DNA from: a virus
Taxonomy: Duplodnaviria; Heunggongvirae; Uroviricota; Caudoviricetes
DNA: 3,890 bases
IMG/VR virus record: IMGVR_UViG_2690316115_000024
Reading direction: 5' to 3' (one strand)
Shown: positions 1 to 3,890 of the stretch, in pieces
Layout: each line of letters begins with the position of its first letter
How positions within the stretch are numbered: position 1 is the stretch's first letter
Notes under the pieces: model-generated
Told to the model about the DNA's origin: nothing
Database searches by the model: none
Seen by the model: the letters and a program-made list of their open reading frames with translations, nothing else
Made by a program: the position numbers and the translations under genes

Positions 1-573
1 ATGTTTTGCGAAGAAAAAGTAGCTCAAATGGCTGCATACCTACTTCTTAAGAGAGGTGGGCGCATGGCATATCTGAAATTGATGAAGCTGCTCTATCTGT
101 CTAACCGCCAGTCGATTTTGAAGCATGGCAGGATGATCGGCGAAGATAGCCTTTACTCTATGAAATTTGGACCAGTCATGTCGAATACGCTGAACTTGAT
201 TCGCGGTAAGGCTGAAGGCATTGGTGACTACTGGTACAACTTGATAGAGACGAACGGGCATAATGTATCGTTGCGTTCAGATCCGAGGGAAATGGATGCA
301 GACGAGGTCTTTGATGAATTGAGTCGTGCAGATATCCGGATTTTAGATGAAATCTATTCTCGGTATGGGCATATGAACCGATTTGATCTCGCAAATATGA
401 CGCATTTAGAAAGCGTTTGTCCAGAGTGGCACGATCCTGGCAATTCTCGTAAGCCTATAGACCTGAAAGAAATGCTGATCAGTGAGGGTAAAAGCGAGGA
501 TGAGGCTAATCGCATAATTGGCAAAATGGAAGAATCTCAGAAACTTAAGGAATTTTCTTTGCAATTATCATGA
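1..573 (+). CDS. Panacea/DUF4065-domain protein (SocA/GepA-like 'phage-associated protein'); putative antitoxin or regulatory partner of a two/three-gene cargo module; 190 aa
   Basis: Seen: ORF from ATG at 1 to TGA at 571-573. The N-terminal half shows the pattern I associate with DUF4065/Panacea proteins: an N-terminal VAQMAAYLL segment, the KLMKLLYL motif, and a GPV motif (MKFGPVMSNTL) about 30 residues later. The stop overlaps the next start in ATGA (570-573). Limits: the start codon is at the window edge, so the upstream RBS and promoter are not visible and the true N-terminus could lie upstream. Family call is from memory of the motif, not a profile search. Confidence 0.6.
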   Translation: MFCEEKVAQMAAYLLLKRGGRMAYLKLMKLLYLSNRQSILKHGRMIGEDSLYSMKFGPVMSNTLNLIRGKAEGIGDYWYNLIETNGHNVSLRSDPREMDADEVFDELSRADIRILDEIYSRYGHMNRFDLANMTHLESVCPEWHDPGNSRKPIDLKEMLISEGKSEDEANRIIGKMEESQKLKEFSLQLS

Positions 574-989
574 CGGATTATCAGCCATACAGGAAAGGAA
601 CTGTGCTTGCCCCAACTGGACCATGCAATCATCTTCATGTGATTTGTAATGATCCTGTTTATTACCCCGTTAACGATTGTTATTGTGTTTTAGTTGTTAA
701 TATTTCTAGTATCAAGGATGGTGTCCCCCACGATCCGTCTTGCGTCTTGAATTCTGGTGATCATCGCTTTATCAAGCATCCAAGTTATGTTGTTTACGCT
801 GAAGCTATAATTTGGCGAGTGGATAACATGGTTAGAAAGCAGCGATCGGGTGAGATTTCTGTTCATGATGATATGCCAGAAGCTACATTCAATAGAATTC
901 TGGACGGTTTTGATATCTCTGATGAAGTTACGCCAAAGAACCTTAAATTTAAAAATAAATATTGCGTATCATCTATTGATGATGAGTAA
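570..989 (+). CDS. Hypothetical protein, 139 aa, Cys/His-rich, no family recognised; candidate toxin/effector partner of the upstream Panacea-domain gene
   Basis: Seen: ATG 570-572 overlaps the upstream TGA (571-573), so translational coupling is likely and there is no independent SD. TAA stop at 987-989. Cys at residues 19, 26, 37, 39, 58, 132 and His at 21, 23, 54, 65, 70, 99 (motifs CNHLHVICND, DCYCVLVV, HDPSC, GDHRFIKHPSY), with an acidic C-terminal tail. Local GC is low (roughly 30-40% by hand count of sampled 60-nt stretches). Inference: operon position fits a toxin/effector role. I cannot assign a family. Confidence 0.6.
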   Translation: MTDYQPYRKGTVLAPTGPCNHLHVICNDPVYYPVNDCYCVLVVNISSIKDGVPHDPSCVLNSGDHRFIKHPSYVVYAEAIIWRVDNMVRKQRSGEISVHDDMPEATFNRILDGFDISDEVTPKNLKFKNKYCVSSIDDE

Positions 990-1028
990 ACAACAGGAAT
1001 TGTTTCGGTATAACTTCTGGAGTTTTCT

Positions 1029-1202
1029 ATGGAAGATCAAAAAGCAACCAAGCCACAGGTTAAGTTCGACACAATGAAAGCATTCGTAGGTATGGGTGCT
1101 GCTGTTGAAGTTCTGATGAAGGCTGCTCCTAATGCGTTCACTCACGCTACTGTCTCTGGTAAAGAGCAGCAGGGTAAGCTTCGTCGTCTCAAAGCAGCAT
1201 GA
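1029..1202 (+). CDS. Small ORF, 57 aa (MEDQKATKPQVKFDTMKAFVGMGAAVEVLMKAAPNAFTHATVSGKEQQGKLRRLKAA), unknown function; not in the supplied ORF track
   Basis: Seen: ATG at 1029-1031 preceded by GGAG (1019-1022) with 6-nt spacing. An in-frame TAA at 1011-1013 rules out a longer form. TGA stop at 1200-1202 is followed about 20 nt later by a strong intrinsic terminator. Codon choice is dominated by GCT/GTT/GGT/CGT/ACT/TCT, resembling highly expressed enterobacterial genes. Short ORFs are easy to over-call, hence moderate confidence. Confidence 0.4.
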   Translation: MEDQKATKPQVKFDTMKAFVGMGAAVEVLMKAAPNAFTHATVSGKEQQGKLRRLKAA

Positions 1203-1221
1203 TCATAGCTGGTGCTTTTTG

Positions 1222-1250
1222 AAAACCCGCCTTCAGGCGGGTTTTTTCTT
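1222..1250. terminator. Bidirectional Rho-independent terminator between convergent transcription units
   Basis: Seen: AAAA-ACCCGCC-TTCA-GGCGGGT-TTTTTCTT. A perfect 7-bp GC-rich stem (1225-1231 / 1236-1242) with a 4-nt loop is followed by a T-run (1242-1247) on the plus strand and preceded by an A-run (1222-1225), which gives a shorter U-tract for the minus-strand transcript. It lies directly after the plus-strand 57-aa ORF stop (1202) and the minus-strand gene stop (1250-1252). Confidence 0.8.
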
Positions 1251-1531
1251 TAGTGATTTTCTTTGCCCTTCTGTTTGACTGTTCTGACCTGTTCCCACTC
1301 GATACGTCCTTCTTCTCGCCTTTTGTCTATGTATTCCGCAAGATCCTGAATATTGATGCAACGTTTTGCTTTTTGTGATGTGCCGATGCGATATGTTGGA
1401 ACGGGCAACTTACAAGCGTTTGCTTTTGCTTCTGCCGTGGCTGGACTCATACCAAAGTACTTTTGGCTAACTGCTGAGAGTTCAATGTTTGGGGTATTGA
1501 ATTCAGCCATCAGTAAAAACAAGGTGTTCAT
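1250..1531 (-). CDS. PrtN-family / excisionase-like small DNA-binding protein (putative Xis), about 93 aa
   Basis: Seen: minus-strand ORF with TAA stop at 1250-1252. Preferred start is ATG at 1529-1531, preceded by GGAG with 6-nt spacing (GGAGAAAATT-ATG). The track's longer GTG start at 1556-1558 has no SD. It is the last gene of the leftward operon and is followed by the terminator. Established/inference: the sequence (AEFNTPNIELSAVSQKYFGMSPATAEAKANACKLPVPTYRIG...DLAEYIDKRREEG, basic C-terminus) resembles PrtN-like proteins annotated as excisionases in P22/Sf6/HK620-type prophages. From memory, unverified. Confidence 0.6.
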   Translation of the reverse strand: MNTLFLLMAEFNTPNIELSAVSQKYFGMSPATAEAKANACKLPVPTYRIGTSQKAKRCINIQDLAEYIDKRREEGRIEWEQVRTVKQKGKENH

Positions 1532-1567
1532 AATTTTCTCCATCAAAACCGGCTGCACCCGGGAAAA

Positions 1568-2901: not shown

Positions 2902-3558
2902 TCACTCTCCTTTGATGCGAATGCCAGCGGCGCGCTCGGCTTCACTTTGTTCCCAAAACCACTTGTGAAGCTCCATAAGCTTTTCGTCAATCGGTGCATA
3001 TTTGCGATTAAAGTAGGCCTGAGCATCTTTCTCAGATTCGTCCGGTAATTCGCCTGGGCCAAACAGTGTGTTATAAATCCATGCCAGTCCGCTTTTAGCG
3101 TCGCCAGTCGATTGCCATTCGATAATCGCAGCCTGCATGACCAGAATGTTTTTCCCGATTAATAGGTCCAGTTCTTTGTACCGGTTGCGGATGTATGCAT
3201 TCTCTCTTTGTAATTTTGCGTTGCGCTTCTCTGCGGCTTCCAGCTCAACACGCAGTTTCCCTACCGTTAGCGCAATTTCCTCGTTCTCCTGGTCGCGGCG
3301 TTTTATGTATTGCTGGTTTCTTTCCCGTTCATCTAGCAGCGCCAGCACGGTAGCCGGATTAGCCCTGGCAACAAAATCCCGGACAGGCTTACAATCAATC
3401 TCCGCAATGGGTTGATACGATGTGTAGCCATGCTGTCTTGTATAACTACCGTGACGAATAACGAAAAAATCACCGTTTATTTTTTTAGCCTGCCACTTAT
3501 CTTCACCGGCTTTCACTGCCGCCTCACGCAGTGCCTGATAGTCAATTTTGTTTGTCAT
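2902..3558 (-). CDS. Ead/Ea22-like family phage protein, 218 aa, with a central coiled-coil-like segment
   Basis: Seen: ATG at 3556-3558 with SD GAGG about 7 nt upstream. It overlaps the upstream gene's TGA (3555-3557) in ATGA. TGA stop at 2902-2904. N-terminus MTNKIDYQALREAAVKAGEDKW and a heptad-like charged stretch (ERERNQQYIKRRDQENEEIALTVGKLRVELEAAEKRNAKLQRENAYIRNRYKELD) match my recollection of ead/Ea22-like proteins in lambdoid early-left regions. Confidence 0.75.
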   Translation of the reverse strand: MTNKIDYQALREAAVKAGEDKWQAKKINGDFFVIRHGSYTRQHGYTSYQPIAEIDCKPVRDFVARANPATVLALLDERERNQQYIKRRDQENEEIALTVGKLRVELEAAEKRNAKLQRENAYIRNRYKELDLLIGKNILVMQAAIIEWQSTGDAKSGLAWIYNTLFGPGELPDESEKDAQAYFNRKYAPIDEKLMELHKWFWEQSEAERAAGIRIKGE

Positions 3559-3731
3559 GTAACTACCTCTTCGAATTTCAACTCCAGTTGATCACCCCAG
3601 ATTTCACATGACTCTGAACACGAGCCGGTATCGAATCGCCCGGCCTGCACCATCGCCTGATACAAATTCCAGTAGTCGCTGTCGGCATACATTCTGGCAA
3701 TCCCTTCAAGACTCAGATGACCACGGTACAT
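3555..3731 (-). CDS. Small hypothetical phage protein, about 58 aa (MYRGHLSLEGIARMYADSDYWNLYQAMVQAGRFDTGSCSESCEIWGDQLELKFEEVVT); 5' region abutted by an IS insertion
   Basis: Seen: TGA stop at 3555-3557 overlaps the Ea22-like start. Candidate ATG at 3729-3731 has only a weak, distant SD (AGGT about 9 nt upstream). The ORF track's 83-aa version starts at 3804-3806, which is inside the IS end, so that form is a chimera of IS and phage sequence. The native gene may have been longer and truncated by the IS. Confidence 0.4.
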   Translation of the reverse strand: MYRGHLSLEGIARMYADSDYWNLYQAMVQAGRFDTGSCSESCEIWGDQLELKFEEVVT

Positions 3732-3757
3732 AACGTCTTTACCTGTTCTGCGATGAC

Positions 3758-3890
3758 TGAGGTAGCCTGAGTTTAACGGACACTCCTTCCTGAAATAGAA
3801 TGGCATCAGAAGGAGCTAATAATGAGCAGAAAAACCCAACGTTACTCTAAAGAGTTCAAAGCCGAAGCTGTCAGAACGGTTCTTGAAAAT
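3758..3890 (+). mobile_element. Left end of an IS3-family insertion sequence (best match from memory: IS600), including the terminal inverted repeat and the start of orfA; continues beyond the window
   Basis: Seen: terminal TGAGGTAGCCTGAGTTTAACGGACAC starting at 3758. It begins with the TG typical of IS3-family ends and has GGACAC 20 nt in, as I recall for the IS3 left IR. orfA starts 64 nt inside with a strong SD (AGGAG, 6-nt spacer). Limits: the right end is outside the window, so the exact boundary (3758 versus 3754) and the target-site duplication cannot be confirmed. Confidence 0.75.
3822..3890 (+). CDS. IS3-family transposase OrfA (HTH DNA-binding subunit), N-terminal 23 codons only (MSRKTQRYSKEFKAEAVRTVLEN), truncated by window end
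   Basis: Seen: ATG at 3822-3824 with AGGAG SD. The translation contains the Y-S-x-E-F-K-x-E-A-V motif characteristic of IS3-family OrfA N-termini and matches my memory of the IS600 OrfA start. Confidence 0.8.
   Translation, partial: MSRKTQRYSKEFKAEAVRTVLEN

What the first reader, a model, noticed from the sequence alone, without database searches (positions are those of the whole stretch)
1029..1202. Unlisted 57-aa ORF with strong SD, expression-like codon usage and a dedicated terminator
Seen: GGAG with 6-nt spacing before the ATG, a stop followed by a near-ideal intrinsic terminator, and codon choices typical of well-expressed genes. The protein has a Gly/Ala-rich amphipathic middle (AFVGMGAAVEVLMKAAP) and a basic C-terminus (KLRRLKAA). 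It lies below the ORF track's length cut-off. Inference: a real small protein, possibly a third module component or an independent small regulator or modulator.
Basis: partly seen in the sequence, partly recalled or inferred. Interest (0 to 1): 0.45.

Follow-up and report, generated by a model that had tools for sequence, protein, structure and literature searches.

The report
Orphaned small phage gene with terminator
The 57-codon reading frame is a genuine, already annotated phage gene of unknown function whose usual neighbour, an acetyltransferase-like gene, has been swapped here for an unrelated toxin-antitoxin pair, leaving it as a stranded and probably decaying leftover.

Summary
In detail: GGAG sits 6 nt before the ATG at 1029, a strong intrinsic terminator lies at 1221-1246, and codon adaptation (CAI 0.54) is far above the neighbours (0.23-0.32).

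The ORF is a real protein-coding gene. Across Enterobacterales, dN/dS is 0.07-0.16, third codon positions vary in 52 of 58 codons, and all indels are in frame.

It is not unlisted. RefSeq annotates it as WP_000390073.1, phage mEp460 as gp24, and it matches phrog_2741 over its full length. Its function is unknown.

It is not a third part of the Panacea toxin-antitoxin pair. That pair stands alone in Yersinia and Klebsiella phages.

In every other lineage except one in Cronobacter, the small gene follows a ~178-aa acidic GNAT-fold gene. There it has its own promoter-like element, a 110-157 nt leader and a terminator. All 80 viral loci with the GNAT gene also carry the small gene.

In the window lineage the GNAT gene and leader were replaced by the Panacea pair. 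The junction is at base 1016.

In this lineage the small gene shows 9 nonsynonymous to 3 synonymous changes, against 40:80 in its neighbours (p=0.009). This suggests relaxed selection.

Inferred, not shown: it is an abundant, basic, possibly ClpXP-labile binding partner of the GNAT protein, most likely its neutraliser.

The parts
1..573 (+). Panacea-domain (PanA-type) antitoxin gene. It belongs to the swapped-in cassette, not to the small gene's unit.
   Evidence: Pfam SocA_Panacea, E = 2e-19. RefSeq name 'Panacea domain-containing protein'.
570..989 (+). 139-aa partner of the Panacea gene (putative toxin). Its start overlaps the Panacea stop as ATGA.
   Evidence: Matches phrog_19071. Homologues are paired with a DUF4065/Panacea gene, and nothing else, in Yersinia phage YeP1 and Klebsiella phage phi12.5.
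1016..1016 (.). Right-hand junction of the cassette swap. To its left, the window lineage and the mEp460-type lineage are unrelated. To its right they are 98% identical.
   Evidence: blastn of Lys8385Vzw against mEp460: homology resumes at L003 4057, which is window 1016. The megablast match to mEp460 starts at query base 57.
1019..1022 (+). Shine-Dalgarno GGAG, 6 nt before the ATG.
   Evidence: Read directly. An SD-like GGAG/GAGG/GGGG lies 5-8 nt before the ATG in every context examined.
1029..1202 (+). 57-aa gene (phrog_2741, WP_000390073.1). The protein is basic (pI 10) and soluble, with an invariant helical core FDTxxAFxGMGAAVEVLMKAAPxAF and a C-terminus RRLKAA.
   Evidence: dN/dS; AF2: helices at 15-37, tails disordered, pLDDT 65; CAI; pI; no transmembrane segment.
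1189..1222 (+). Predicted hairpin spanning the stop codon and ending in UUUUUG. Its sequence is conserved across genera. Its role is unknown.
   Evidence: MFE fold. In the RNAalifold consensus, 8 of the 10 pairs of this hairpin are kept in at least 11 of 12 sequences, with almost no covariation.
1221..1252 (+). Intrinsic terminator (GAAAACCCGCC-TTCA-GGCGGGTTTTT plus T-run). It closes the + strand unit and sits against the stop codon of the convergent excisionase gene.
   Evidence: A G+C-rich hairpin followed by a U-run follows the ORF in all other lineages except Photorhabdus, with different stem sequences in Hafnia, Cronobacter and Edwardsiella.
1250..1558 (-). Convergent PrtN-family excisionase gene. 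It is part of the backbone block shared with mEp460.
   Evidence: Pfam PyocinActivator, E = 4e-23. phrog_1300 excisionase. Annotation.

Best explanation
Bases 1029-1202 are a real gene of a small phage protein family restricted to Enterobacterales (phrog_2741).

In its native state it is the second gene of a two-gene 'moron' cassette (an accessory cassette in a phage genome). The cassette consists of an acidic ~178-aa GNAT-fold protein (phrog_4350), then a promoter-like element overlapping that gene's stop codon, a 110-157 nt leader, the 57-aa basic protein, and an intrinsic terminator. This cassette moves between accessory slots of different phages: attP/int-xis, Q-lysis, and among tail genes.

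In the window's lineage, the GNAT gene, the promoter-like element and the leader were replaced by a Panacea antitoxin + 139-aa toxin pair. The swap left only the Shine-Dalgarno site, the ORF and the terminator attached to the xis-side backbone. The ORF can now be expressed only by read-through from the Panacea operon. The terminator still ends that + strand unit in front of the convergent xis gene. Here the ORF appears to evolve nearly neutrally, so it is an orphan.

Inferred mechanism in the native cassette: the small protein is made in large amounts, is largely disordered apart from one helical core, and may be turned over through a ClpX-type C-terminal tail. It binds the GNAT-fold partner and most likely neutralises it, in the way an antitoxin or immunity protein would. 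An orphan copy is then harmless and dispensable.

Sub-confidences:
- Real gene family: about 0.95.
- Orphan of the GNAT cassette, and not a Panacea component: about 0.85.
- Relaxed selection here: about 0.6.
- Neutraliser of a toxic GNAT partner: about 0.35.
For: Coding (shown).
- Among 24 distinct nucleotide versions, variable columns by codon position are 24/25/52 of 58. Median dN/dS is 0.16, and 0.07-0.12 for the most divergent pairs.
- Length is 51-61 aa with an invariant core.

Pairing with the GNAT gene (shown).
- A GNAT-family gene lies upstream in E. coli mEp460, Salmonella, Enterobacter, Pseudescherichia, Franconibacter, Hafnia, Edwardsiella, Photorhabdus and Serratia, and at a 44%-identical metagenomic relative.
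- 80 of 80 viral loci found with the GNAT profile carry an intact small ORF 179-197 nt downstream.
- The partner's AF2 model has pLDDT 89.6. All top Foldseek PDB hits are GNAT enzymes, including SpeG, AtaT and TacT3, at E about 1e-6 and TM about 0.55.

Swap (shown).
- Homology blocks break at L003 2848-4057, which places the right junction at window 1016.
- Among 5426 complete E. coli genomes, 205 carry the Panacea junction and 358 the GNAT-leader junction.
- The Panacea pair stands alone elsewhere. PanAT is described as a two-gene system (PMC8832971).

Native promoter-like element. TAGAC[GC]-N16-18-TA[GC][GT]AT was found in 18 of 21 distinct spacers.

Relaxed selection. The small ORF shows 3 synonymous to 9 nonsynonymous changes. 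panA, the 139-aa gene, xis and exo in the same loci together show 80 to 40 (Fisher p = 0.009). Against the long-term omega the binomial p is 0.004. One genome has a 1-bp frameshift.

Partner inference.
- Occurrence is asymmetric: GNAT is never found alone, while the small gene is found alone in two lineages.
- Charges are opposite: pI about 10 against about 4.7.
- CAI is high, 0.48-0.60 in Escherichia and Enterobacter relatives.
- The conserved C-terminal ...RRxKAA, VAA or AVA resembles the ClpX degrons of ssrA (LAA), RseA (VAA) and MuA (RRKKAI) listed in PMC8138137 Table 1.
Against: - No experiment shows that the GNAT-fold protein is toxic or that the two proteins bind each other.
- The fold match is generic GNAT. 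It is no closer to the AtaT/TacT toxins than to SpeG.
- An acidic GNAT would be unusual for a tRNA-acetylating toxin (my own recollection, not tested).
- Known GNAT antitoxins carry an RHH/DUF1778 domain and are encoded upstream. This protein has neither feature.
- The co-occurrence and relaxed-selection data fit an enzyme-substrate pair equally well.
- The relaxed-selection count rests on 12 mutations. Diversifying selection would give the same ratio.
- The ORF is still intact in all but one of about 205 Panacea-context E. coli genomes and keeps its Shine-Dalgarno site, so a residual function is not excluded.
- The degron resemblance is pattern matching only.
- The loci sampled are many near-identical prophages, giving roughly 15 independent lineages.
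Confidence: 0.5

Rival explanations
1. Enzyme-substrate pair. The small basic protein is the effector or precursor, and the acidic GNAT-fold enzyme acetylates it on lysines or on its N-terminus to switch it on or off. Without the enzyme, the window's copy is an unmodified and functionless leftover.
For: The co-occurrence is strict. The charges are opposite and the small protein's tails are lysine-rich. GNAT hits include protein and peptide N-acetyltransferases, among them a lasso-peptide acetyltransferase (9iy3). Relaxed selection on the orphan fits this reading as well.
Against: If neither protein were harmful alone, GNAT-only remnants should turn up about as often as small-gene-only remnants. 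None was seen in roughly 100 loci. A separate promoter-like element, very high CAI and a degron-like tail fit a labile neutraliser better. No export or maturation genes are nearby.
Confidence: 0.17
2. Autonomous small protein. It acts on its own, for example as a regulator, a modulator of a host factor or a superinfection-exclusion factor, and that is why it was kept when its neighbour was exchanged.
For: It is intact with its Shine-Dalgarno site and terminator in about 205 E. coli genomes without the GNAT gene. It also occurs without the GNAT gene in Cronobacter prophages. In relatives it has its own promoter-like element. Its CAI is high.
Against: In the window lineage its mutations run 9 nonsynonymous to 3 synonymous, while its neighbours are clearly constrained. 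Some of these changes hit otherwise invariant residues (L29M, K50E). The Cronobacter copy has lost the conserved C-terminus. The window copy has lost the native promoter-like element and leader.
Confidence: 0.13
3. Third component of the Panacea toxin-antitoxin module, such as a chaperone, a second antitoxin or a regulator.
For: The ORF lies 39 nt downstream on the same strand with no terminator in between, so it is probably co-transcribed. Three-gene toxin-antitoxin architectures do exist (PMC8832971).
Against: Homologous Panacea + toxin pairs in Yersinia phage YeP1 and Klebsiella phi12.5 are followed directly by a convergent gene, and no homologue of the ORF is present in those genomes. Homologues of the ORF elsewhere never accompany a Panacea gene. 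The recombination junction separates the ORF from the pair.
Confidence: 0.03
4. The region functions as RNA, not as protein: a small RNA or a 3'UTR element ending at the terminator. On this reading the ORF is incidental.
For: The sequence around the stop codon and the 3'UTR (GCTGGTGCTTTTTG) is conserved across genera and can form a hairpin.
Against: The substitution pattern is codon-periodic, with strong purifying selection on the amino-acid sequence. No Rfam family reaches its gathering threshold, and the weak hits cover only the terminator. The hairpin shows no covariation.
Confidence: 0.02

Closest known systems
GNAT-type type II toxin-antitoxin systems (AtaT-AtaR, TacT-TacA, KacT-KacA)
   Same: In relatives, a GNAT-fold protein is strictly accompanied by a small partner. 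AtaT and TacT3 are among the fold matches. In those systems a short, largely disordered segment of the antitoxin binds the toxin; the 6gtr and 7ak9 entries are toxin plus antitoxin C-terminal peptide. The cassette lies on mobile elements next to other defence or toxin-antitoxin genes.
   Different: The small protein has no RHH/DUF1778 domain. It is encoded downstream rather than upstream. It has its own promoter-like element and a long leader instead of translational coupling. The GNAT partner is acidic and matches no Pfam GNAT model. Toxicity is untested. In the window itself the GNAT gene is absent.
PanAT (Panacea antitoxin + toxin) modules
   Same: The ORF sits immediately downstream of a PanA-like gene and its overlapping partner, on the same strand.
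   Different: PanAT is a two-gene system (PMC8832971). Homologous pairs lack this ORF, and the ORF's family is linked to a different gene.
Orphan antitoxins and immunity genes left on mobile elements
   Same: A small partner gene persists after its cognate gene is lost. It is tolerated and shows relaxed constraint.
   Different: Its antitoxin identity is inferred only. No protective role against incoming GNAT-cassette phages has been tested.
Phage morons (promoter-gene-terminator units in accessory slots of lambdoid phages)
   Same: The cassette occupies the classic slots (int-xis, Q-lysis) in different phages. In relatives it carries its own promoter-like element, and it carries its own terminator.
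   Different: The window copy has lost its promoter-like element and leader. Only the gene and the terminator remain.

Membership tests
phrog_2741 (PHROG family of unknown function) | Significant full-length match to the family profile | tested here: met
   E = 1.1e-34, residues 1-57 aligned to profile positions 1-57 of 57.
PanAT module (as a third component) | Conserved co-occurrence with Panacea antitoxin + toxin pairs across species | tested here: not met
   Seven of nine phage records with a homologue of the 139-aa toxin have no homologue of the ORF. The YeP1 and Klebsiella phi12.5 loci show a two-gene unit only. Other homologues of the ORF have no Panacea neighbour.
GNAT-type type II toxin-antitoxin (as the antitoxin) | Adjacent GNAT-fold partner | tested here: not met
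   The window has no GNAT gene, because the cassette was swapped. The feature is met only in relatives: 80 of 80 viral loci plus about 15 genomic lineages, with the GNAT fold supported by AF2 and Foldseek.
GNAT-type type II toxin-antitoxin (as the antitoxin) | RHH/DUF1778 DNA-binding domain, and a gene upstream of and overlapping the toxin gene | tested here: not met
   No Pfam or NCBIfam domain was found. The gene lies 95-197 nt downstream of the GNAT gene, behind a promoter-like element.
GNAT-type type II toxin-antitoxin (as the antitoxin) | The partner is toxic and the small protein neutralises it by binding; the antitoxin is proteolytically labile | not testable with these tools
   The support is indirect only: asymmetric occurrence, opposite charge and a C-terminal tail resembling ClpX degrons.
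Type I toxin (small membrane peptide with an antisense RNA) | A hydrophobic transmembrane segment | tested here: not met
   The best 19-residue Kyte-Doolittle window averages 1.13. GRAVY is -0.36. The core contains Glu and Lys.
Rho-independent (intrinsic) terminator | A G+C-rich stem-loop directly followed by a U-run, placed after a stop codon | tested here: met
   11-bp stem with 6 G-C pairs, a 4-nt loop and T6. Fold z = -3.1. A functionally equivalent hairpin plus U-run, with a different sequence, occurs in Hafnia, Cronobacter and Edwardsiella.
Any Rfam RNA family | Score at or above the family's gathering threshold | tested here: not met
   The best hits overlapping 1151-1376 score 19-30 bits against thresholds of 43-80 and cover little beyond the terminator.

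The most novel reading that the evidence does not exclude
The GNAT-fold protein (phrog_4350) and the 57-aa basic protein (phrog_2741), together with the conserved promoter-like element and the long inverted-repeat-rich leader between them, form an undescribed phage-borne toxin-antitoxin or abortive-infection system. In it, a ClpXP-labile mini-protein with no DNA-binding domain holds an acetyltransferase in check. The window's copy would then be an orphan antitoxin, which might still protect the lysogen against phages carrying the full cassette.
Probability: 0.3. Interest if true: 0.55.

Novelty: new variant of a known kind. Interest (0 to 1): 0.3.

Why it matters
For this window the result is mostly a correction. 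The ORF is real but already annotated. It is not part of the Panacea module and is probably a drifting leftover, so it should not be counted as a component when that module is tested.

The wider point is that about 10% of complete E. coli genomes, and many Salmonella and Enterobacter prophages, carry this small gene. Two thirds of the E. coli copies sit in a strictly conserved pair with an uncharacterised GNAT-fold protein that no Pfam, NCBIfam or PADLOC model recognises. That pair is a cheap and well-defined candidate for a new toxin-antitoxin or defence cassette.

The two natural states, a full cassette and an orphan, offer a ready-made comparison for experiments.

Tried and rejected
- **Domain and family searches.** Pfam, NCBIfam and PADLOC gave nothing for the small protein. 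Pfam and PADLOC gave nothing for the GNAT partner. PDB sequence searches found only noise.
- **Exhaustive profile search.** A profile search of 1.84 billion representative proteins found only 13 representatives, all short and of the same family, so no link to a characterised family emerged.
- **Structure of the small protein.** The AF2 model was too uncertain (pLDDT 65) to justify a fold search.
- **Rfam.** The window and ten related loci gave no relevant family.
- **Leader covariation in relatives.** 85% of cells pair, against 21-45% for slid controls. But only 2 pairs show double changes, and 48 of 500 shuffles reach the observed score. The inverted repeats are conserved as sequence, RNA structure is not established, and they could equally be protein-binding sites.
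- **Relaxed selection, first comparison.** Comparing with the GNAT-context E. coli copies alone was not significant (p = 0.24), because those copies barely vary. The comparison with neighbouring genes in the same loci was used instead.
- **Similarity between cassettes.** The 139-aa protein and the GNAT partner show no similarity, so the swap was not a like-for-like exchange.
- **Literature.** Searches for the protein accession and for mEp460 found no study of this gene. The NetFlax paper does not mention GNAT.
- **Rejected readings.** A type I membrane toxin was rejected because there is no hydrophobic segment. An incidental ORF on an RNA gene was rejected because the substitution pattern is codon-periodic.

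Full report
**What is in the sequence.** The window is the accessory end of an E. coli lambdoid prophage. It is 100% identical over the queried stretch (window 960-1270) to phage Lys8385Vzw and to the prophage of E. coli O103 RM8385, which sits beside zur and a dusA fragment.

On the + strand lie:
- a Panacea-domain gene (1-573);
- an overlapping 139-aa gene (570-989);
- the 57-codon ORF (1029-1202);
- a stem-loop plus T-run (1221-1246).

On the - strand a PrtN-family excisionase gene ends at 1250. Behind it come a 3'-5' exonuclease gene, a DUF551 gene and an Ea22-like gene.

- GGAG is at 1019-1022 with a 6-nt spacer.
- The terminator has an 11-pair stem and a T-run. Its fold energy is -24.2 kcal/mol, z = -3.1.

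**Is it a gene?** Yes. Homologues exist in Escherichia, Salmonella, Enterobacter, Pseudescherichia, Atlantibacter, Franconibacter, Cronobacter, Hafnia, Edwardsiella, Serratia and Photorhabdus. They are 51-61 aa long and share an invariant core, FDTxxAFxGMGAAVEVLMKAAPxAF.

In 24 distinct nucleotide versions, the third codon position varies in 52 of 58 codons, against 24 and 25 for the first two positions. Pairwise dN/dS has a median of 0.16 and falls to 0.07-0.12 for the most divergent pairs. All indels are in frame.

An SD-like motif lies upstream in every context. A hairpin plus U-run lies downstream in every context except Photorhabdus, with unrelated stem sequences in Hafnia, Cronobacter and Edwardsiella.

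The gene is not new to the databases. It is WP_000390073.1 in RefSeq, gp24 in mEp460, and a full-length member of phrog_2741, which has no known function. It has no Pfam, NCBIfam or PADLOC match. An exhaustive profile search found only 13 representatives, all of the same short family.

**What it belongs to.** It does not belong to the Panacea pair.
- Homologues of the 139-aa protein, preceded by a DUF4065/Panacea gene, form a stand-alone two-gene unit in Yersinia phage YeP1 and Klebsiella phage phi12.5. YeP2 and YeP3 have the 139-aa homologue and no homologue of the ORF, but their loci were not inspected. The ORF has no homologue in any of these phages.
- PanAT is described as a two-gene system (PMC8832971).
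- In every other lineage except one Cronobacter prophage, the small gene lies 95-197 nt downstream of a 176-184-aa gene of phrog_4350.
- This holds even for a relative whose large protein is only 44% identical.
- All 80 viral loci retrieved with the large protein's profile carry an intact small ORF.

The large protein matches no Pfam model. Its AlphaFold2 model is confident (pLDDT 89.6), and all its top PDB neighbours are GNAT acetyltransferases, including SpeG, AtaT, TacT3 and protein N-acetyltransferases. The matches are generic, at E about 1e-6 and TM about 0.55.

The pair occupies different accessory slots in different phages: between attP/int and xis, between the Q antiterminator and the lysis genes, and among tail genes in Photorhabdus. 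It therefore behaves as a mobile two-gene cassette.

**The swap.** Aligning Lys8385Vzw with mEp460 shows 97-98% identity on both sides of a non-homologous segment. That segment holds Panacea + 139-aa in one phage (1208 bp) and GNAT + leader in the other (803 bp). The right-hand junction is at window 1016, 13 nt before the ATG.

The small ORF, its Shine-Dalgarno site, the terminator and xis therefore belong to the shared backbone. Among 5426 complete E. coli genomes about 562 carry the ORF: 205 with the Panacea junction and 358 with the GNAT-leader junction.

**What the window copy has lost.** In relatives, the spacer between the two genes starts with a conserved promoter-like element, TAGAC[GC]-N16-18-TA[GC][GT]AT. 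Its -35 hexamer overlaps or abuts the GNAT gene's stop codon. The element was found in 18 of 21 distinct spacers, and its key positions are nearly invariant across genera.

A 110-157 nt leader follows, with several conserved inverted repeats such as CCAATCG...CGATTGG. I could not establish RNA structure by covariation.

None of this is present in the window, where the ORF is 39 nt from the 139-aa gene's stop codon. No promoter-like site was found nearby. Expression here would depend on read-through from the Panacea operon.

**Selection in the window lineage.** Across 63 Panacea-context loci the small ORF has 12 distinct mutations, 9 of them nonsynonymous. These include changes at otherwise invariant residues (L29M, K50E).

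In the same loci the Panacea gene, the 139-aa gene, xis and the exonuclease gene together show 40 nonsynonymous and 80 synonymous changes. Their omega-like ratios are 0.04-0.17, against 0.88 for the small ORF (Fisher p = 0.009). Against the family's long-term ratio the binomial p is 0.004.

One complete genome has a 1-bp deletion in codon 23 and no annotated ORF. The counts are small, and diversifying selection would look the same. The simplest reading is relaxed constraint on a stranded gene.

**How it most likely works (inference).** The small protein is soluble and basic: pI about 10, with no transmembrane segment. Only residues 15-37 are predicted helical, and its tails are lysine- and arginine-rich. 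Its partner is acidic, with pI about 4.7.

Four further points bear on the mechanism:
- The small gene's CAI is two-fold higher than that of the other genes in the window.
- In relatives it has its own promoter-like element.
- Almost all family members end in AA, VA or VAA preceded by basic residues. This resembles the C-terminal ClpX degrons of ssrA (LAA), RseA (VAA) and MuA (RRKKAI) listed in PMC8138137.
- The GNAT gene is never seen without the small gene, whereas the small gene is seen without the GNAT gene in two independent lineages.

This asymmetry, together with high synthesis and a possible degradation tag, is the pattern expected of a neutraliser of a harmful partner. I therefore favour an antitoxin-like or immunity-like role, at about 0.35. 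An enzyme-substrate relationship is the main rival, at about 0.17. Nothing here shows binding, toxicity or lability.

**Comparison with known systems.** The nearest known kind is the GNAT-type type II toxin-antitoxin family (AtaT-AtaR, TacT-TacA). This cassette fails that family's defining features on the antitoxin side:
- it has no RHH/DUF1778 domain;
- it is encoded downstream;
- it has its own promoter-like element and a long leader.

The GNAT partner also matches no existing family model. It may work like a GNAT toxin-antitoxin system, but it is not a member of that family. In the window itself only the orphan small gene and its terminator remain, next to a bona fide PanAT-type pair to which it is unrelated.

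**Verdict.** Interest for the window is low to moderate. The GNAT + small-protein cassette found in relatives is the part worth an experiment.

Noticed in passing
L002 3815-4016 (mEp460), L098 3805-4003, L102 3820-4003, L007 3815-4003 and others; absent from the window: The spacer between the GNAT-fold gene and the small ORF carries a conserved promoter-like element, TAGAC[GC]-N16-18-TA[GC][GT]AT, overlapping the GNAT stop codon. It also carries a 110-157 nt leader with several conserved inverted repeats (TTACCT..AGGTAA, CCAATCG..CGATTGG, AAGGTTAGC..GCTACCTT, GAGAC..GTCTC next to the SD). It matches no Rfam family. The covariation test was inconclusive, so it could be a structured leader, a small RNA or a set of operator sites.
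   Followed up: partly
window 1189-1222: A predicted hairpin spans the stop codon and ends in UUUUUG, immediately before the main terminator. Its sequence (GCAGCATGA..GCTGGTGCTTTTTG) is conserved from Escherichia to Franconibacter, although synonymous sites elsewhere in the ORF vary in 52 of 58 codons. There is no covariation and its role is unknown.
   Followed up: partly
L090 2150-3109 and L091 2051-3109 (Hafnia prophages): A RelA_SpoT-domain gene (319-352 aa, toxSAS- or CapRel-like in size) sits directly upstream of the GNAT + small-protein cassette in the Q-to-holin slot. That slot therefore appears to collect toxin or defence genes.
   Followed up: no
window 3758-3890: Homology to related prophages stops at 3757. 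The last ~130 bases are a multicopy element found in 4124 of 5426 E. coli genomes, with up to 43 places per genome. An ORF starts at 3832 (MSRKTQRYSKEFKAEAVRTVLEN), which by my recollection looks like an IS3-family transposase orfA. An insertion sequence appears to interrupt the prophage's PAPS-reductase-family gene (the 83-aa ORF at 3555-3806).
   Followed up: partly
L096/L097 3658-4156 (Cronobacter prophages): This is a second, independent case of the small gene without the GNAT gene. It lies between the portal and terminase genes, preceded by an 88-aa ORF (phrog_11049). It is shortened to 51 aa and has lost the conserved C-terminal ...KAA tail.
   Followed up: no
L001 4684-5042 (E. coli RM8385), left of window base 1: In the lysogen the Panacea gene lies about 250 nt from a truncated tRNA-dihydrouridine synthase (dusA) fragment at the prophage-host junction, reading inward. 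Host transcription could therefore enter this + strand unit, with the terminator at 1221-1246 as the first strong stop before xis.
   Followed up: no
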